51,038 nucleotides of DNA, taken from a virus (Duplodnaviria > Heunggongvirae > Uroviricota > Caudoviricetes). The notes below the pieces were generated by a model, which was not told the origin of the DNA, did not search any database, and worked only from the letters and a program-made list of their open reading frames with translations. This document shows positions 4,988 through 48,363 of the stretch, in pieces. Position 1 is the stretch's first letter. Every line of letters starts with the position of its first letter. The stretch covers positions 1-51,038 of the IMG/VR virus record IMGVR_UViG_2778261009_000008, one strand, 5' to 3'. A program made the translations under genes and the position numbers.

Positions 4988-5172
4988 GTTGACCCCATTT
5001 ACCCTTAACGCCGGGTAGCGGAACTAAAAACCTGCTGCGCTGTTATACAAAGTGTTCCCGCCGTCATGTTCATACGCCTCGGGCTGGCTACTTAACCCCT
5101 GACCACTGCCGGGTAACTCGAGGTATTGCCCTGCATTCTGTGGGGCGGAGTGGGTTGGTATGAAAGGAAGTA

Positions 5173-5209
5173 TACCCACGGGTATCCAAAAAGTAAATAC
5201 CCATGGGTA
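5173..5209. promoter_or_regulatory. Pair of 12-bp palindromes (TACCCACGGGTA / TACCCATGGGTA), candidate left operator sites
   Basis: Two near-identical palindromes 25 bp apart, the second perfect, located just beyond the repressor gene 3' end and upstream of the leftward early genes. Confidence 0.35.
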
Positions 5210-5254
5210 ACTTTTTTTTCAGGCGTCTTAACTGGTGACTGGTTGTTTGGTGAG

Positions 5255-5716
5255 TTATGATGCGTTTTGTGCTTTCTTTTTACGGATTTCTTCGTAGATC
5301 ATATTGTAATACTGTTTTTTCTCTTCAAGAGTTTTTAATAAGTTATCCGCTTCACTTTCTGGCAGCTCGTCTAAGAGATCTAAAAAAATACGTTGTCGTG
5401 GCGTTAGAACCCTTGTTTCATAATTGGAGGCTGTGTTCGTTGATGATGAAACGATACCATCCATCCATCCTCGGGGTAACCCAAAGGACTCTTCGATAAT
5501 CTCCACCATATCATCAGCGATCCGTTTTTTTCCCTTTTTCCCCTCTGGGTACAACATTCTTGATACATAAGAAGGCTCGCGACCGATCTTTCTGGCTACG
5601 TTAACCGCTTTACCATCGCATTTCTCATCACGAATTTTGATGAGCTGCTGTCGTCTAAATTCATATTTGTCCATAGGTAAATAATAGATGTGATTACCGT
5701 AAGGTAAACAACCCAA
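5255..5716 (-). CDS. Prophage repressor (RacR-like)
   Basis: 153 aa ORF transcribed divergently from a Cro-like gene; resembles Rac-prophage-type repressors by recollection; predicted TTG start is doubtful, an internal Met (MDKYEF…) may be the real start. Confidence 0.7.
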   Translation of the reverse strand: MGCLPYGNHIYYLPMDKYEFRRQQLIKIRDEKCDGKAVNVARKIGREPSYVSRMLYPEGKKGKKRIADDMVEIIEESFGLPRGWMDGIVSSSTNTASNYETRVLTPRQRIFLDLLDELPESEADNLLKTLEEKKQYYNMIYEEIRKKKAQNAS

Positions 5717-5774
5717 AGGTATTGACTTTTGTTTACCTATAGGTATTCTTTGCTGTGTTTACTAAGGAGTAGCT
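5660..5774. promoter_or_regulatory. Divergent promoter/operator region of the immunity switch
   Basis: Intergenic region between the divergent repressor and Cro-like genes; inverted repeats ATAGGTAAA…TTTACCTAT and a TTGACT hexamer; SD AGGAG precedes the rightward gene. Confidence 0.45.
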
Positions 5775-6056
5775 ATGGAAGAATTAAGAATATTTCTCAA
5801 TTCTCTTTCGTCAGATGAACAGCGTATGTTTGCATGCGAGTGTGGTACCAGCATCGGTTATCTAAGAAAGGCATTGAGTAAAGGCCAAGTGTTAGGGGCA
5901 TCGTTATGTGTCCTTATTGAGCGAGCCAGTAATGGTGAAGTTACACGTCAGCAACTAAGGCCTTTTGATTGGATGAATATTTGGCCTGAGCTGGAAGATA
6001 CCAAAACGTTAACACAACCACTTTCTAGGAGCTTGATTCATGAAAATCAAGCATGA
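5775..6056 (+). CDS. Cro/YdaS-like HTH transcriptional regulator
   Basis: 93 aa ORF with good SD, divergent from the repressor; HTH-like segment (…GTSIGYLRKALSKGQ…). Confidence 0.7.
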   Translation: MEELRIFLNSLSSDEQRMFACECGTSIGYLRKALSKGQVLGASLCVLIERASNGEVTRQQLRPFDWMNIWPELEDTKTLTQPLSRSLIHENQA

Positions 6057-6465
6057 GCACATCCGCATGGCGATCAATGCCTGGGCCTATCCGGACGGTG
6101 AGAAAGTTCCTGCAGCTGAAATAGCCCGGACTTATTTCGAACTGGGGATGACATTCCCTGAACTGTACGACGACAGCCATCCGGAAGCCCTGGCCCGTAA
6201 TACACAGAAAATTTTCCGTTGGCTGGATAAAGACACCCCTGATGCTGTTGAAAAAATGCAGGCTCTGTTACCGGCGATCGAAAAGGCGATGCCGCCTTTG
6301 CTGGTGGCCCGTATGCGCAGCCACAGTTCTGAATATTACCGTGAGATCGTCGAACGGAGGGATCGGCTGGTGAAGGATGTCGATGATTTTGTTGCGTCAG
6401 CGGTTGTTTTGTATGACCAGATGAATCGCGGCGGCCCGGCAGGGAATGCTGTGGTGATGCACTAA
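6040..6465 (+). CDS. YdaT-like protein (CII-position regulator)
   Basis: 141 aa ORF starting MKIKHEHI…, overlapping the Cro-like stop; resembles YdaT-family proteins of Rac-like prophages. Confidence 0.65.
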   Translation: MKIKHEHIRMAINAWAYPDGEKVPAAEIARTYFELGMTFPELYDDSHPEALARNTQKIFRWLDKDTPDAVEKMQALLPAIEKAMPPLLVARMRSHSSEYYREIVERRDRLVKDVDDFVASAVVLYDQMNRGGPAGNAVVMH

Positions 6466-6487
6466 AAGCACGGTGTTCGGGGGGGTT

Positions 6488-7456
6488 ATGAGCAGCAAGC
6501 TTCATGGTCTTGTCTGGGAAGGGTGCGCCTTCACCGGCATGATCTTATCCAGGGTGGCGGTTATGGCCCGTCTTGCAGACTACAGCAATGACGAGGGCGT
6601 GTCATGGCCTGCCATTGAAACTATCCGGCGTCAGATCGGTGCAAGAAGTGAATCCACCGTTAAATCTGCTATTGCAGAACTGGCGAAAGAGGGCTGGCTG
6701 ACGAAGGAAGAGCGTAAGGTCGGTGGGCGTAACGTAAGCAATATCTATCGGCTTAATGTGGAAAAACTCGAAGCAGCTGCAACTGCGGCGCGTGAGGCAT
6801 ATAAACCGAAAAGAAAAATTAGCCCGGCAAAAAATGACCCGTTAACAGTTAACCCGTCAAATATTGCCCCCTCAACGGTTGACCCGTCAAATGTTGATGG
6901 ATCAACGGTTGATAAAAAACTGCGTATTAGGGGGGCGATGATTGACCCCGATCCGTCAGTATTAAAACCTGATCCGTCAGATAAAAGATCTTCTTGTCCG
7001 GACGTTTCACTGCCGGACGAAAAACGATCATCACCAGTTGAGCGATTTCTGGAGAAACACCCAGATGCGCATACCTGGAATGTACCGAAGCGACAGTGGG
7101 GTACCCGTGAGGATGTCGCCTGTGCGCAGTGGATTTGGGGACGGGTTGTGGCGTTGTATGAACAGGCCGCCAGTGATGATGGTGAGGTGTCACGCCCCAG
7201 AGAACCTAACTGGACGACCTGGGCGAATGATGTGCGCATGATGCGTATGCTGGATGGACGTAGTCACCGGCAGATTTGTGAAATGTTTGGGCGTGTCCAG
7301 CGGGATTCGTTCTGGGTAAAAAACATCATGAGTCCGGCAAAACTCAGGGAAAAATGGGATGAACTGGTTATCCGCCTGGGGCGTTCGCCCGCGCAGCGTT
7401 GCGTAAATCACATTTCTGAACCGGACACTGAAATACCGCCGGGATTCAGGGGGTGA
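6488..7456 (+). CDS. Replication initiation protein (lambda O-like)
   Basis: About 322 aa; N-terminal winged-helix-like domain, central repeat-encoding linker containing DNA iterons, C-terminal domain; followed by a DnaC-like gene. Confidence 0.75.
   Translation: MSSKLHGLVWEGCAFTGMILSRVAVMARLADYSNDEGVSWPAIETIRRQIGARSESTVKSAIAELAKEGWLTKEERKVGGRNVSNIYRLNVEKLEAAATAAREAYKPKRKISPAKNDPLTVNPSNIAPSTVDPSNVDGSTVDKKLRIRGAMIDPDPSVLKPDPSDKRSSCPDVSLPDEKRSSPVERFLEKHPDAHTWNVPKRQWGTREDVACAQWIWGRVVALYEQAASDDGEVSRPREPNWTTWANDVRMMRMLDGRSHRQICEMFGRVQRDSFWVKNIMSPAKLREKWDELVIRLGRSPAQRCVNHISEPDTEIPPGFRG
6836..6995. repeat. Iteron-like direct repeats inside the O-like gene followed by an A/T-rich tract (candidate replication origin)
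   Basis: CCCGTCAAAT(A/G)TTG x2, TCAACGGTTGA x2, CCCGTTAACAGTTAA, then GATAAAAAACTGCGTATTA and GATCCGTCAG x2; mirrors the lambda arrangement of ori within O. Confidence 0.5.
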
Positions 7457-7462
7457 TGTGGC

Positions 7463-8209
7463 ATGAAAAACATTGCGGCAGTTGGGGTTCTTGAATGTAT
7501 TCGCAGACTTGCACCACTGGGGGCGGTTCCACCGTACCGGACGGTGGAGGAGTGGCGGGAATGGCAACTTGCTGAAGGACGAAAACGCAGCGAGGAGATT
7601 AACCGCCAGAATCGCCAGTTGCGGGTGGAAAAAATCCTGAATCGTTCGGGCATCCAGCCTCTGCACAGCAAATGCTCGTTTGCAAATTATCAGGTGCAGA
7701 ACGACGGGCAAAAATACGCGCTGAGCTAGGCCAAATCCATAGCTGACGAACTGATGACCGGGTGCACGAATTTTGTGTTCAGCGGTAAAACCGGCACCGG
7801 GAAAAATCACCTTGCAGCGGCGATGGGCAACCGGCTGATGGTGAAGGGGCGCAGCGTGATTATCGTCACCGTGTCTGACGTCATGAGCGTGTTGCATGAC
7901 AGCTACGACAACGGCAAATCCGGGGAAAAATTTTTACAGGAGCTTTGCGGGGTTGATTTGCTGGTCCTGGATGAAATAGGCGTCCAGCGGGAGACGAAAA
8001 ACGAGCAGGTGGTATTGCACCAGATAATTGATCGCCGGACAGCATCACTGTGCAGTGTTGGGATGTTAACAAACCTGAATCATGCCGCAATGAGTACGCT
8101 TCTTGGTGAGAGGATTATGGACCGCATGACCATGAACGGTGGTCGATGGGTGACGTTTAACTGGGATAGCTGGCGTCCAAATGTCAGCAATATGAGGGTT
8201 GTGAAGTAA
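7463..8209 (+). pseudogene. DnaC-like helicase loader interrupted by an in-frame TAG (7727-7729)
   Basis: ORFs 7463-7729 and 7754-8209 are in the same frame and together align along the length of DnaC (…NRSGIQPLHSKCSFANYQ… then Walker A FSGKTGTGKNHLAAA, Walker B LLVLDEIG); the TAG sits where DnaC has a Lys codon. Confidence 0.65.
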
Positions 8210-8230
8210 TTTTGTCCGGAGGAAATTTTA

Positions 8231-8947
8231 ATGGAAACCGTATCTGACGCACTGAAAGCACTGAAAAAAGCCTCTTCACATGTGGTGGCTGCGCGCCTTG
8301 GAATCAGTCGTGAAGAGGCTGTCAACGAACTGTGGAAACTGAAACGCCGTGGTGAAGCGGATAACAGGGGGGCGATGTGGTGGCTGACTCAGGCTGGGGA
8401 AAGTGAATCTGTGATACAACCACCAAAAGTGACGGCGCAAATGCTGACAGAGGCGATTGAACAACATGGCCCACAAACGGCGGATGAGCTGGCATTGATG
8501 TTCGGAATTACCTCCCGCCGTGCGAATTCATCGCTGGCAATGGCAATCAGCAAAGGGCGTCTGATTCGCGTGAATCAGGGCGGTAAATTTCGTTACTGCA
8601 TGCCGGGCGATAATTTACCAGTAGAGCCGAAAGCCGCATCTGTAGCGGAAACGGATGGTAAAGCCCTTCCTCAGCCAGCAGGTGTTGCGTTACCAGTCCA
8701 GCAAACGACTACACAGGAAGATATTAAAACAGAAACTGTGGTGGACATTGTGCAGTCGTTGCCACTGTTCACCGAAACGCAAGCGGATGACCTGGTTTTA
8801 CCATCGCTGCATATGGCAAACCGCGAACTGCGTCGGGCGAAAAGTGATGTCCAGAAGTGGGAGCGAGTCTGTGCTGCGCTGCGGGAACTGAACAAACACA
8901 GGGATATTCTCCGGGATATTACCGCCACCAGAGAGCAGCAGCGGTGA
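8231..8947 (+). CDS. Hypothetical protein with N-terminal winged-helix-like domain
   Basis: 238 aa ORF with good SD (GGAGGAAATTTTAATG); no family recognised. Confidence 0.6.
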
Positions 8948-9261
8948 GTGGCTGGAAGAAGTGGCGTTGGGCTGAAATCCTGATACTCCGGCAGTGTGCG
9001 GGAACGATGAGAGTCGAAAGCATCGGTTATCTGATTGGCCGTAGTGAGTCAGCCGTCAGGACGAAAGCGCGGGAACTGGGGATCAGCATGATGTTACGGG
9101 GTGATTATCACCAGTCAGCCAAATTCTCACAGCGTGATATTGAGCTGGCGCGGCAACTGCATCAGCGTGGCGTACCCCGACGGGAAATTGCCGAAAAGTT
9201 TGGGATGAAGTTGGGCGCAGTGAATAACTACGTTTATTTCGACAGGAGGCTTCAGGAGTGA
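8944..9261 (+). CDS. Hypothetical small HTH protein
   Basis: GTG start overlapping the preceding stop (GTGA); about 105 aa with HTH-like segments; translationally coupled. Confidence 0.45.
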
Positions 9262-18498: not shown

Positions 18499-18776
18499 TT
18501 ATCTGCATCATGCGTTGTTAGCTCTGATGAGTGAATCATTGTCTTTTGAGCAACAGGCTATCATATAAGATAGTCTCAGATTTCCTTGTTTATTCTCGCC
18601 GGATGCTTCGTAGATATTTGCAGGCATCTGTATGCAGGGGTATTATTGCGGCATATATCATCCGGAAAAATAAAAACTACATGCTGATCCGGAGATGATA
18701 GTTACAAGTCCTCCCGGATCCCGCATATTTACTATATTTTATAGATAATTGTTCTTGTTAATATGGAGATGGATAA

Positions 18777-46635: not shown

Positions 46636-48363
46636 ATGACAGTCAGAATATCGGGTGTGCTGAAGGATGGTACGGGAAAAGCGGTACCGGGATGCACGAT
46701 AGAGCTGAAAGCGCGCCGCACAACGGAGACGGTGATTGTCACCACGGTGGCGTATGGTCAGCCGGGGGAAACCGGCAGTTACAGTATGGATGTTGAGCCG
46801 GGGTTGTACCGGGTGACGCTGAACACGGAAGGGTACGCGCCGTCATATGTGGGTGACATTCTGGTGAAGGCGGATTCTGCACCGGGAACGCTGAATAAAT
46901 TTCTGATGGACCTGGAGGACGCACAGTATTACCCGAAAGCCCTTGCAGAGCTGGAAGCGGTGGCAGCGGAAATCCTGAAACGTGCAGAAGCGTCAGCGGC
47001 CAGTGCGGAGGAGGCAAAAAAACGGGCAGAGAATGCGCGGGGACCGAAGGGGGATAAGGGGGACACCGGGCCGCAGGGTATTCCCGGGCCAAAAGGCGAT
47101 ACCGGCGAGCGGGGGCCAAAGGGTGAGCGTGGTGAGACAGGACCACAGGGGCTTCAGGGTGTGAAAGGTGAACGGGGAGAGAAGGGCGAAAAAGGCGAGC
47201 CGGGAGGGCCGGATGCGACGACGGCACAGAAGGGAATTGTGCAGTTAAGCAGCACAACGGACAGTGATGATGAAACGAAGGCAGCCACCCCGAAAGCGGT
47301 GAAAGCGGCAATGGACAAAGCGGACGGATGCCTGGAGAAAGCGAAAAACGGTGACGATATCCCGGATAAGGTGAAGTTTCTGAACACCGTGGGAGCAGCC
47401 AGAGTATACGGGCGGGACATTCATACGGGGGCCGGTGAATGGACCACGAGTGAGTTTGTCGCCTGGCTGAAAGAAAAAGGGGCATTTGACCAGCCTTACT
47501 GGATGATGAAGGCATCACTGCCTGCGGTAATGAATAAAGTCATCACGGATGTCGGACCGGGAAAACTCAATCTGGGTGGCTGCGCCATTGAGGTGATGGG
47601 GACGTATAACGCAGCCATAGTCCGGGTCACCATTGGCGAATACGGTGCAACGGGGTTTATTAATGGCACGGTCTGTACCTGTACGGTTTACGGCGACACA
47701 CAGTATTTCCACTGGCGGGTGGATTACAGCACAAAAAACAAACCGGATACGGTCAGCCAGCGGGATGCCAGCACGACGCAGAAAGGTGTGGTGCAGTTAA
47801 GCAGTGATACTGGCAGTAATGACGAAACAAAGGCAGCCACGCCGAAGGCCGTGAAGGCGGCAATGGATGTGGCAAATGAAGCGAAAACAAAGGCAGAAGA
47901 GGCTGCAGCAGGAGGTGGTGTTCCCGGTCCGAAAGGAGAGAAAGGTGACCCCGGAGCACAGGGTCCGAAAGGTGAAACGGGAGCAACAGGCCCCGCTGGT
48001 CCGCGGGGAGCGCAGGGACCGAAAGGGGAGAAAGGAGACCCCGGTCCCAGAGGTGAGCGTGGAGAAACCGGGCCGATGGGGCCGCCCGGGGCATCAGACG
48101 GGAAGAGCCGGGTTGTGGGTATCAGGCTGGGTAATAAACAGACTTATGCGCCGCAAACAGACAGCACTACATGGGCAGTGGATTTGGATATTGGTGCGAT
48201 GATTACGGGGATTGGCGGTTACAACGACGGAAACAAAACCCTTATTGACAGGGTATCTTACAGGCCGCTTCAGGTGACATTTGATGGTTCTCAGTGGCGT
48301 ACAGTCAGCGTGGGTGAGTATGTGTCGTCAGGAGCTTCGGGGTTTGAGTATTTTCCATTATAA
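46636..48363 (+). CDS. stf: Side tail fibre protein (Stf-like) with collagen-like Gly-X-Y repeats
   Basis: 575 aa; N-terminus [15 protein letters not shown]… parallels lambda Stf; two fibre-repeat motifs (QKG.VQLSS…[15 protein letters not shown]) and two Gly-X-Y tracts. Confidence 0.85.

What the first reader, a model, noticed from the sequence alone, without database searches (positions are those of the whole stretch)
6836..6995. Iteron-like repeats and A/T-rich tract inside the O-like gene (candidate origin)
Several short direct repeats (CCCGTCAAAT.TTG, TCAACGGTTGA, GATCCGTCAG) are clustered within about 160 bp and flanked by an A-rich tract; they encode the repetitive linker (…PSNIAPSTVDPSNVDGSTVD…) of the initiator. 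This mirrors lambda, where the O-binding iterons lie within O itself.
Basis: partly seen in the sequence, partly recalled or inferred. Interest (0 to 1): 0.4.

Follow-up and report, generated by a model that had tools for sequence, protein, structure and literature searches.

The report
Prophage replication origin inside initiator gene
The short repeats are real and are very probably the binding sites of a lambda-style replication origin that sits inside the prophage's own initiator gene; this layout is well known, but here it uses a different DNA-binding domain and repeat type that I did not find described.

Summary
Window 6835-6913 holds five 15-bp units, each with an 11-bp dyad of the form TCAA-N3-TTGA. 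It is the strongest short-period repeat in the 51-kb window. Two GATCCGTCAG copies follow, inside the window's densest GATC cluster, then an inverted repeat GTCCGG-N11-CCGGAC.

- **Host gene:** 6488-7456 encodes a winged-helix (HTH_36) N-domain, a disordered linker and a C-domain homologous to lambda O (41% identity, E 1e-24).
- **Position:** the array occupies codons 118-142. Lambda's iterons occupy codons 117-145 of O.
- **DNA-level constraint:** in 74 enterobacterial homologues the repeat keeps a DNA motif, not a peptide. The key codon is TCA in 96% of units. Where the residue changes, the codon becomes CCA or TTA. Synonymous sites in the adjacent domain are nearly saturated.
- **Conserved core:** a GATC-bearing block (GGGGATCCGTCAGTAAA in most relatives) lies just downstream across genera. 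It travels with the N-domain whichever C-domain follows.
- **Link to lambda:** Proteus and Providencia relatives carry lambda's ori-right palindrome after this core.

It is best read as a new member of the lambdoid ori-in-initiator kind. The downstream loader gene has a nonsense codon, so the module may be inactive in this prophage.

The parts
6488..7456 (+). Replication initiator gene (322 aa): winged-helix HTH_36 N-domain, disordered linker, lambda-O-like C-domain, short tail
   Evidence: ORF list. RefSeq start in the identical E. coli record. Pfam HTH_36, E 2.4e-6. AlphaFold: folded 1-104, pLDDT below 50 for 110-180, helical 183-297. C-domain homologous to lambda O and phi80 gp15.
6799..6838 (+). 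A-rich tract upstream of the array (encodes KPKRKISPAKN)
   Evidence: 63% A+T with high A/T skew. Absent from the larger clade of relatives, clade B, so probably not the conserved unwinding element.
6835..6913 (+). Iteron array: five 15-bp units with 11-bp dyads at 6842-6852 TTAACAGTTAA, 6857-6867 TCAAATATTGC, 6872-6882 TCAACGGTTGA, 6887-6897 TCAAATGTTGA and 6902-6912 TCAACGGTTGA. The two flavours alternate, giving a 30-bp super-period.
   Evidence: DNA-level conservation in homologues.
6944..6999 (+). Conserved origin core: GACCCCGATCCGTCAGTATTAAAACCTGATCCGTCAGATAAAAGATCTTCTTGTCC. It has two GATCCGTCAG copies 21 bp apart and a third GATC at 6987. The least stable 40-mer of the gene (about 6955-6998) lies here and is the candidate unwinding region.
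   Evidence: Block conserved across genera. GATC kept in 73 of 74 and 65 of 74 homologues. Stability profile. GATC density. CAGTATTAAAA...GATCTTC also present to the right of the phi80 iterons.
6996..7018 (+). Inverted repeat GTCCGG-N11-CCGGAC, in the position of lambda's ori-right palindrome
   Evidence: Read. A longer imperfect version is I8. Same arms in the Shigella relative, and the true lambda-type palindrome in Proteus/Providencia relatives at the same place.
7037..7393 (+). Coding region of the lambda-O-like C-terminal domain (aa 184-302), presumed contact with the helicase-loading machinery
   Evidence: BLASTP to lambda O residues 188-277 and to phi80 gp15 residues 173-291. Confident helical model.
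7397..7453 (+). C-terminal tail (RCVNHISEPDTEIPPGFRG) shared with K-12 Rac YdaU
   Evidence: It is the only segment similar to YdaU (13 of 19 identical). Both genes are followed by a YdaV-type loader. A docking role is inferred.
7463..8209 (+). YdaV/DnaC-type (IstB-like AAA+) helicase-loader gene, interrupted by an in-frame stop at 7727-7729
   Evidence: Pfam IstB_IS21, E 1.3e-17. 79% identical to K-12 YdaV. Translation shows the stop. RefSeq flags 'internal stop' in the identical strain.

Best explanation
The segment 6835-7018 is the cis-acting replication origin of this lambdoid prophage, embedded in the linker-coding part of its initiator gene.

Proposed mechanism:
1. Dimers of the initiator's N-terminal winged-helix domain bind the five 11-bp dyads (TCAA-N3-TTGA), which are spaced 15 bp apart. 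Together they build an O-some-like nucleoprotein complex.
2. This complex destabilises the adjacent, conserved, moderately A/T-rich core that carries GATC sites (about 6944-6999). The core is bounded by the inverted repeat GTCCGG-N11-CCGGAC.
3. The lambda-O-like C-domain and its tail recruit the YdaV/DnaC-type loader with host DnaB to the opened DNA.

Because the linker is disordered in the protein, the DNA there is free to be shaped by the binding sites. That produces the pentapeptide repeats as a by-product.

Shown here: the anatomy, the homology of the C-domain to lambda O, the equivalent position of the array, the DNA-level constraint, and the co-inheritance of the N-domain with the repeats and core.

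Inferred: binding, unwinding, loader recruitment, and any role of Dam or SeqA at the GATC pair.
For: 1. The repeat is real and unique in the window.
2. The gene's C-domain is homologous to lambda O (41% identity, E 1e-24) and phi80 gp15 (E 4e-25). Both of those genes contain their origins, with annotated iterons, at the same relative position (PMC7466680).
3. The constraint acts on DNA, not on the peptide. In 74 homologues from many enterobacterial genera, Ser at repeat position 3 is TCA in 330 of 405 cases and Ser at position 5 is TCT in 308 of 431. Elsewhere in the same genes these codons make up 17% and 9% of Ser codons.
4. In units not selected for TCA, the codon is TCA in 175 of 182 (clade B, the larger group of relatives). 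In clade A (the window's group) it is TCA 12, CCA 10, TTA 4, so the residue changes among Ser, Pro and Leu while the YYA bases stay. The codon at position 2 is free.
5. Four-fold degenerate sites at conserved residues of the adjacent N-domain are near saturation (mean top-base frequency 0.49).
6. The motif differs between the two N-domain clades: TCAA(A/C)(T/G)(A/G)TTGA against TCAAAATCTGA. That is expected for an initiator and its cognate sites.
7. Copy number is 2-9 and mostly 4-5. Close E. coli proteins differ in length by multiples of 5 aa in this stretch, as lambda and Stx phages differ by iteron number (PMC7466680).
8. The downstream core is conserved at the DNA level across genera. Its two GATC sites are kept in 73 of 74 and 65 of 74 homologues, and the Asp codon switches from mostly GAC in the array to GAT in the core.
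9. The 17-mer GGGGATCCGTCAGTAAA occurs in at least 120 viral contigs, always inside an ORF. In 109 of them the ORF has this N-domain. The C-domain is O-like in 60 and of another type in 51.
10. Proteus and Providencia relatives carry TTCGTCGCAGAATTCTGACGAATCC, the lambda/phi80 ori-right palindrome, directly after the core.
11. The linker is predicted to be disordered.
Against: - No experiment on this family was found: no binding data, no ori mapping and no plasmid test.
- The presumed unwinding region is only about 63% A+T, far less extreme than in lambda.
- A 15-bp centre-to-centre spacing puts neighbouring sites on roughly opposite faces of the helix, unlike lambda's spacing of about two turns. 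Possibly only alternate sites (30-bp period) are bound.
- Homologues are not phylogenetically independent, and phage modules spread horizontally. This inflates the apparent conservation, although the saturated synonymous sites in the same genes argue against that explanation.
- In this prophage the loader gene has a nonsense codon. Its integrase is frameshifted in the annotation of the identical strain. The origin may therefore not fire here.
Confidence: 0.8

Rival explanations
1. The repeats are only a slippage-generated, low-complexity protein linker (pentapeptide D-P-S-N/T-V). The DNA repetition is a by-product with no cis-acting role, and the origin lies elsewhere in the prophage.
For: The region encodes a disordered linker. 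Copy number varies in 5-aa steps, as slippage would produce. No experimental origin mapping exists.
Against: The peptide is not what is conserved. Position 2 is free and position 3 switches among Ser, Pro and Leu while keeping YYA. Ser codons are almost fixed as TCA and TCT across genera whose synonymous sites are otherwise saturated. The dyad symmetry, the motif change with N-domain clade and the homologous lambda ori-right element next to it in relatives are not explained. No other repeat cluster of similar strength exists in the window.
Confidence: 0.07
2. The conserved DNA marks a recombination junction between exchangeable modules (N-domain module and C-domain module). It persists because it promotes or results from mosaic exchange among lambdoid phages, rather than because it is an origin.
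For: The conserved core sits exactly where the C-terminal domain type switches: O-like in 60 and another type in 51 of 120 viral contigs. Many genomic relatives match the window protein only over residues 1-177.
Against: It does not explain the iterated dyads, their clade-specific sequence or the codon-level fixation inside the array. Lambda's origin also sits at this domain boundary, so a junction role and an origin role are compatible rather than exclusive.
Confidence: 0.06
3. The array binds the initiator or another regulator for control rather than initiation. Examples would be autoregulation, copy-number 'handcuffing', incompatibility, or Dam/SeqA-dependent sequestration. Strand opening would then occur at a separate site.
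For: Iterons in plasmids serve both initiation and control (general knowledge). The GATC pair is highly conserved and the cluster is the densest in the window.
Against: No second iteron cluster or alternative A/T-rich iteron-flanked site is present in the replication region. Single motif matches elsewhere are at chance level. The layout matches lambda's origin part for part.
Confidence: 0.05
4. The DNA-level conservation reflects an overlapping gene in another frame or on the opposite strand, such as the 164-aa antisense ORF at 6745-7239.
For: An antisense ORF spans the region in the window. One antisense frame is open in 10 of 74 relatives.
Against: No alternative frame is open in the other 64 relatives, which show the strongest codon fixation. 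The antisense ORF is expected from palindromic repeats. There is no Rfam match.
Confidence: 0.02

Closest known systems
ori-lambda within gene O of phage lambda (and the six-iteron origins of Stx phages 933W and P27)
   Same: The origin lies in the middle of the initiator gene, between the DNA-binding N-domain and the C-domain. It has tandem dyad-symmetric iterons (4 in lambda, 6 in Stx phages, 5 here), and copy number changes alter protein length. A less stable region and then an inverted repeat lie on the C-terminal side. The C-domains are homologous (41% identity). The origin sits in the early rightward operon after cro/cII-like genes (PMC7466680).
   Different: The N-domain is Pfam HTH_36, not the lambda-O N-domain, and shows no sequence similarity to it. 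Iterons are 11-bp dyads at 15-bp spacing, read as pentapeptides, instead of 18-19-bp sites about two turns apart. The A/T-rich tract is much weaker. A conserved GATC pair is present. The loader is a DnaC/IstB-type AAA+ protein (YdaV-like), not lambda P.
phi80 gene 15 origin (four annotated gp15 binding sites inside gene 15)
   Same: The C-domains are homologous (E 4e-25). The DNA to the right of the iterons shares CAGTATTAAAA...GATCTTC(G/T)T...TCC with the window. The relative position is the same.
   Different: The N-domain and iterons are different (CCCGAAAACGGGAA-type, 21-bp spacing). phi80 uses a lambda-P-like gp14.
Rac prophage replication module ydaU-ydaV of E. coli K-12 (oriJ)
   Same: The operon layout is the same: YdaS-like, YdaT-like, initiator, YdaV-type loader, DUF1627-type gene. 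The loader is 79% identical over its C-terminal 151 aa. The initiator tail ...IPPGFRG is shared.
   Different: YdaU has a DUF1376 N-domain and no other similarity. It carries its own mid-gene repeats (AAACAGATGTTCAA-like, four copies). The exact position of oriJ was not found in the papers available here.
P22 gene 18 origin
   Same: The origin is annotated inside the initiator gene, with tandem repeats (TCGGTAAAAC-type) followed by an A/T-rich run.
   Different: There is no detectable protein similarity. P22 pairs gene 18 with a DnaB-type helicase (gene 12).
Iteron plasmid origins (Rep_3/RepA/pi type)
   Same: A winged-helix initiator binds tandem iterons next to an unwinding element, and iteron sequence co-varies with the initiator.
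   Different: In plasmids the iterons are intergenic direct repeats of about 17-22 bp phased at about 22 bp, usually with DnaA boxes. Here the sites lie inside a gene, have a 15-bp period and are dyad-symmetric. DnaA boxes are not enriched, and the initiator has no Rep_3 match.

Membership tests
Lambdoid origin located inside the initiator (O-type) gene | Cis element lies within the initiator ORF, between the N-terminal DNA-binding domain and the C-terminal domain | tested here: met
   The array is at codons 118-142 of a 322-codon gene. The N-domain is folded over 1-104 and the C-domain over 183-297. Lambda's iterons are at codons 117-145 of O.
Lambdoid origin located inside the initiator (O-type) gene | Several tandem iterons with internal dyad symmetry | tested here: met
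   There are five 15-bp units. Three are perfect TCAA-N3-TTGA, plus TTAA-N3-TTAA and TCAA-N3-TTGC.
Lambdoid origin located inside the initiator (O-type) gene | A/T-rich unwinding region adjacent to the iterons on the C-terminal side | tested here: inconclusive
   The least stable 40-mer of the gene is at about 6955-6998. It ranks in the top 1.7% of the window but is only about 63% A+T.
Lambdoid origin located inside the initiator (O-type) gene | Inverted repeat to the right of the A/T-rich region (ori-right palindrome) | tested here: met
   GTCCGG-N11-CCGGAC at 6996-7018. Relatives carry either the same arms or the lambda/phi80 palindrome itself at this position.
Lambdoid origin located inside the initiator (O-type) gene | Initiator C-terminal domain homologous to lambda O | tested here: met
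   BLASTP gives 41% identity over 100 aa, E 1e-24. For phi80 gp15 the value is E 4e-25.
Lambdoid origin located inside the initiator (O-type) gene | Initiator N-terminal domain of the lambda-O type (Pfam Phage_rep_O) | tested here: not met
   Pfam finds HTH_36 only. There is no N-terminal similarity to lambda O, phi80 gp15 or P22 gp18. The element is therefore lambda-like in design, with a non-homologous recognition module.
Lambdoid origin located inside the initiator (O-type) gene | Sequence-specific binding of the initiator to the repeats, and initiator-dependent replication of DNA carrying them | not testable with these tools
   This needs EMSA or footprinting and a plasmid replication assay. 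The only indirect hint is a 16-kb circular record made of the immunity, replication, Q and lysis region. Its initiator reading frame is broken, and the record may be an assembly or sequencing artefact.
Lambdoid origin located inside the initiator (O-type) gene | Repeats constrained as DNA, beyond what the encoded protein requires | tested here: met
   Shown by codon fixation, residue changes that keep the bases, and saturated synonymous sites nearby. No conserved alternative-frame ORF exists.
Iteron-plasmid origin (Rep_3 / RepA type) | Rep_3-type initiator, intergenic direct iterons of about 22 bp, DnaA boxes | tested here: not met
   No Rep_3 match. The period is 15 bp and the sites are inside a gene. 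DnaA-box-like sites occur at the chance level.
Rac oriJ / YdaU-type module | DUF1376 initiator paired with a YdaV loader | tested here: not met
   The loader is YdaV-like. The initiator shares only its last 19 residues with YdaU.

The most novel reading that the evidence does not exclude
The element would represent a very widespread origin module of enterobacterial temperate phages that I did not find described. Its parts are an HTH_36 winged-helix initiator domain, codon-phased 15-bp iterons (TCA-N5-TGA, read as pentapeptides), and a near-universal core with a pair of Dam sites (GGGGATCCGTCAGTAAA...GATCC). The module recombines as one unit with at least two different C-terminal, loader-matching domains. 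The conserved GATC pair, spaced two or more helical turns apart, would make initiation subject to Dam methylation or SeqA. The 17-mer would then serve as a sequence tag that pinpoints the origin in thousands of prophages.
Probability: 0.35. Interest if true: 0.5.

Novelty: new member of a known kind. Interest (0 to 1): 0.38.

Why it matters
If correct, the origin of a common class of E. coli, Shigella, Klebsiella and other enterobacterial prophages can be located from sequence alone. Homologues at 80% identity or more occur in 1818 of 5426 complete E. coli genomes. Relatives include SfII/SfIV-type phages and records named Stx1a-converting phages.

It also gives a clean natural example of a protein-coding stretch whose sequence is dictated by overlapping protein-binding sites. 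Finally, it yields a compact initiator-specificity module (domain plus sites) that could be tested for incompatibility, for replication control by Dam or SeqA, and for use in plasmid tools.

It does not change the known picture of lambdoid replication. It extends that picture to another recognition module.

Tried and rejected
- **Phage DNA search:** megablast of the gene against the phage collection found nothing. Only protein-level relatives exist there, at about 50% identity.
- **P22 gp18:** no similarity, so the P22 gene-18 family was rejected.
- **K-12 YdaU:** only the last 19 residues match, so the gene is not a YdaU orthologue despite the Rac-like operon.
- **Solved structures:** a profile search of PDB sequences gave no meaningful hit. 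Foldseek gave only generic winged-helix regulators at weak E-values. This supports the fold class but no specific initiator family.
- **DnaA boxes:** not enriched. One 1-mismatch site lies about 80 bp upstream.
- **Rfam:** no match in 5000-9000, so a structured RNA was rejected.
- **Overlapping ORF:** rejected, because other frames are closed in 64 of 74 relatives.
- **Literature:** searches for this family's origin found no description. The topics tried were phi80/gene 15, oriJ/ydaU, Eru replication types of Stx phages, SfII/SfIV, and lambdoid iterons with DnaC. The Stx 'Eru' paper does not mention iterons. Older subscription papers are not in the library, so prior description cannot be excluded.
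- **Circular 16-kb record:** NZ_CP148542.1 carries the module with no replicon type listed. It looked like a natural lambda-dv-like replicon, but its initiator frame is broken by two nearby indels. I count it as ambiguous.

Full report
**Context.** The window matches an E. coli chromosome at 100% identity (NZ_AP045179.1). There the region is a lambdoid prophage next to ompW, with a frameshifted integrase. The finding lies in the early rightward operon. The gene order is a repressor-like gene on the minus strand, a YdaS-like Cro analogue, a YdaT-like protein, the initiator (6488-7456), a YdaV/DnaC-type loader (7463-8209) and a DUF1627 gene.

**The observation.**
- Tandem Repeats Finder reports a 15-bp period (6835-6912, 5.2 copies) and a 30-bp super-period.
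- Each 15-bp unit contains an 11-bp dyad: TTAACAGTTAA, TCAAATATTGC, TCAACGGTTGA, TCAAATGTTGA, TCAACGGTTGA. They start at 6842, 6857, 6872, 6887 and 6902.
- Three of the four exact TCAANNNTTGA matches in 51 kb are here, 15 bp apart.
- The stretch is the best self-matching segment of the whole window at any period from 6 to 60, with z of about 6.6 at period 15 and 7.9 at period 30.
- Downstream lie two GATCCGTCAG copies 21 bp apart, inside the densest GATC cluster of the window, with five sites in 130 bp.
- The least stable 40-mer of the gene is at about 6955-6998 and is about 63% A+T.
- An inverted repeat GTCCGG-N11-CCGGAC lies at 6996-7018.

**The gene.** Pfam finds only an N-terminal HTH_36 winged-helix domain.
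- The C-terminal part is homologous to the C-domain of lambda O (41% identity over 100 residues, E 1e-24) and to phi80 gp15 (E 4e-25). There is no similarity to P22 gp18.
- An AlphaFold model built on 27 homologues gives a folded winged-helix domain (1-104), a disordered stretch (110-180, pLDDT below 50) and a confident helical C-domain (183-297). Structural neighbours are generic dimeric winged-helix DNA binders.
- The repeats therefore encode a disordered linker at codons 118-142. The annotated iterons of lambda occupy codons 117-145 of O, and those of phi80 lie mid-gene too.
- The last 19 residues (..IPPGFRG) are the only part shared with K-12 Rac YdaU. The next gene is 79% identical to YdaV. 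I infer that the tail docks that loader type.

**Is the repetition a property of the DNA or of the protein?** I collected 80 loci from one genome per species, of which 74 were usable. All have pentapeptide repeats after the N-domain, but it is a nucleotide pattern that stays constant.
- Ser at repeat position 3 is TCA in 330 of 405 cases. Ser at position 5 is TCT in 308 of 431 cases. In the rest of the same genes these codons account for 17% and 9% of Ser codons.
- I then counted only units that were not used to define the register. In the larger clade B (64 loci) the position-3 codon is TCA in 175 of 182 units. In clade A, the window's clade (10 loci), it is TCA 12, CCA 10 and TTA 4. The residue changes among Ser, Pro and Leu while the bases stay.
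- The position-2 codon is essentially free.
- Four-fold sites at conserved residues of the neighbouring N-domain are close to saturation (mean top-base frequency 0.49). Recent common descent therefore does not explain the fixation.
- No alternative reading frame is open across the family, and no Rfam family matches.
- The consensus differs between the two N-domain clades: TCAA(A/C)(T/G)(A/G)TTGA(C) against TCAAAATCTGAC. That is the pattern expected for a protein and its cognate sites.
- Copy number is mostly 4-5, with a range of 2-9. Close E. coli alleles differ in length by multiples of five residues in this stretch. Stx-phage O proteins likewise differ from lambda O by extra iterons (PMC7466680).

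**The conserved core.** A block lies just after the array. In most relatives it reads ...TCTGG(C/G)GGGGATCCGTCAGTAAA..TCAA.....GATCC(A/G)TCAGATAAAAAACCTTCTTGTC.... In the window it reads GACCCCGATCCGTCAGTATTAAAACCTGATCCGTCAGATAAAAGATCTTCTTGTCC.
- It is conserved at the nucleotide level from Escherichia to Proteus, Yersinia, Rahnella and Tatumella.
- The two GATC sites are kept in 73 of 74 and 65 of 74 loci. Asp codons are mostly GAC in the array but GAT in the core, which creates the GATC.
- The 17-mer GGGGATCCGTCAGTAAA occurs in at least 120 IMG/VR contigs, always inside an ORF. In 109 the ORF has this N-domain, and 118 of the 120 have 15-bp-spaced units upstream. The C-domain is O-like in 60 and of a different type in 51.
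- The N-domain, the repeats and the core are thus inherited together and combined with different C-domains. This is how an origin-recognition module should behave.
- In Proteus and Providencia relatives the core is followed by TTCGTCGCAGAATTCTGACGAATCC..GAC. This is the ori-right palindrome of lambda and phi80 with few changes.
- The window shares CAGTATTAAAA...GATCTTC with the right side of the phi80 origin.

**Mechanism proposed.** By homology and anatomy the element should work like ori-lambda. Initiator dimers bind the dyads and assemble a nucleoprotein complex. The adjacent core melts. The C-domain and tail bring in the loader-DnaB complex. Transcription from the early promoter passes through the site, as in lambda. 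Binding, melting and recruitment are all inferred.

Three open points remain:
- **Weak A/T richness.** The presumed unwinding region is much less A/T-rich than lambda's.
- **Site spacing.** The 15-bp spacing places neighbouring sites on opposite faces of the helix. The alternation of two site flavours in the window suggests a functional 30-bp period.
- **The GATC pair.** Its role is unknown. Dam or SeqA control is a reasonable guess only.

**State in this prophage.** The loader gene has an in-frame stop at 7727-7729, which RefSeq also flags in the identical strain. The integrase is frameshifted there too. The origin sequence looks intact, but the module may be unable to fire without a substitute loader.

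**Comparison with what is known.** Origins inside initiator genes are textbook for lambda, phi80, P22 and Stx phages (PMC7466680). This element meets the positional, repeat, palindrome and C-domain criteria. It fails only the criterion of a lambda-type N-domain. The A/T-rich criterion is inconclusive. It is not a Rep_3-type plasmid origin, and its initiator is not the Rac YdaU type. I found no paper describing the origin of this HTH_36 family, but the library lacks much of the older literature. I classify it as a new member of a known kind.

**Verdict.** I put the probability that this is the functional origin element of this phage type at about 0.8. Interest is moderate (0.38). The design is familiar. 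The codon-phased iterons, the near-universal GATC core and the module's very wide distribution are useful additions that can be tested directly.

Noticed in passing
window 7463-8209 (stop at 7727-7729): The YdaV/DnaC-type helicase-loader gene downstream of the initiator carries an in-frame stop at codon 89. The same strain's annotation marks it 'internal stop' and shows a frameshifted integrase, so the prophage is probably defective.
   Followed up: partly
window 7397-7453; L085 4918-4974 (K-12 ydaU 3' end): The last 19 residues of the initiator (..VNHISEPDTEIPPGFRG) are the only part shared with K-12 Rac YdaU, and both genes precede a YdaV-type loader. This is possibly a loader-docking peptide that is exchanged independently of the rest of the protein. 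Other homologues end in ..EGWRDVL or ..EAWENTL.
   Followed up: partly
L085 4472-4563 (E. coli K-12 ydaU, Rac prophage): K-12 ydaU has four copies of an AAACAGATGTTCAA-like 14-mer in the middle of the gene (start-to-start spacing 33, 33 and 12 bp). This is a candidate position for the Rac origin oriJ, whose exact location I could not find in the available papers.
   Followed up: no
L087 (NZ_CP148542.1, whole 15,977-bp circular record): A record deposited as an E. coli plasmid consists only of prophage genes: repressor, cro, this initiator type (about 85% identical), YdaV-type loader, nin-region genes, Q and lysis genes. No replicon type is listed. It could be a natural lambda-dv-like replicon or an assembly artefact. 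The initiator frame is broken by two indels 34 nt apart in homopolymer runs.
   Followed up: partly
window 6745-7239 (- strand): A 164-aa antisense ORF runs through the repeat region. Because the repeats are palindromic, it encodes a similar peptide (..STVDPSTFDGSTVEG..). The corresponding frame is open in only 10 of 74 relatives, so it is probably not a gene.
   Followed up: yes
window about 47923-48010 and 47020-47110: Further short-period self-similarity (periods 54, 36, 9, 27 and 45) appears in the periodicity scan, probably coding repeats in a late or tail-fibre gene.
   Followed up: no
window about 2246-2350: A 21/42-nt periodic stretch lies inside the large 3'-5' exonuclease gene on the minus strand. 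It is the third-best periodic signal in the window.
   Followed up: no
window about 18724-18764: This is the least stable (most A/T-rich) 40-mer of the whole window (nearest-neighbour dG -39 against a mean of -58 kcal/mol). It lies far from the replication genes and was not examined.
   Followed up: no
L010-L016, L023 (Proteus/Providencia loci, about 80 nt after the conserved GATCC.TCAGTAA block): These distant relatives carry an almost exact copy of the lambda/phi80 ori-right palindrome (TTCGTCGCAGAATTCTGACGAATCC) next to non-lambda iterons. The right arm of the origin therefore seems to travel with the O-like C-domain, and the iterons with the N-domain.
   Followed up: partly
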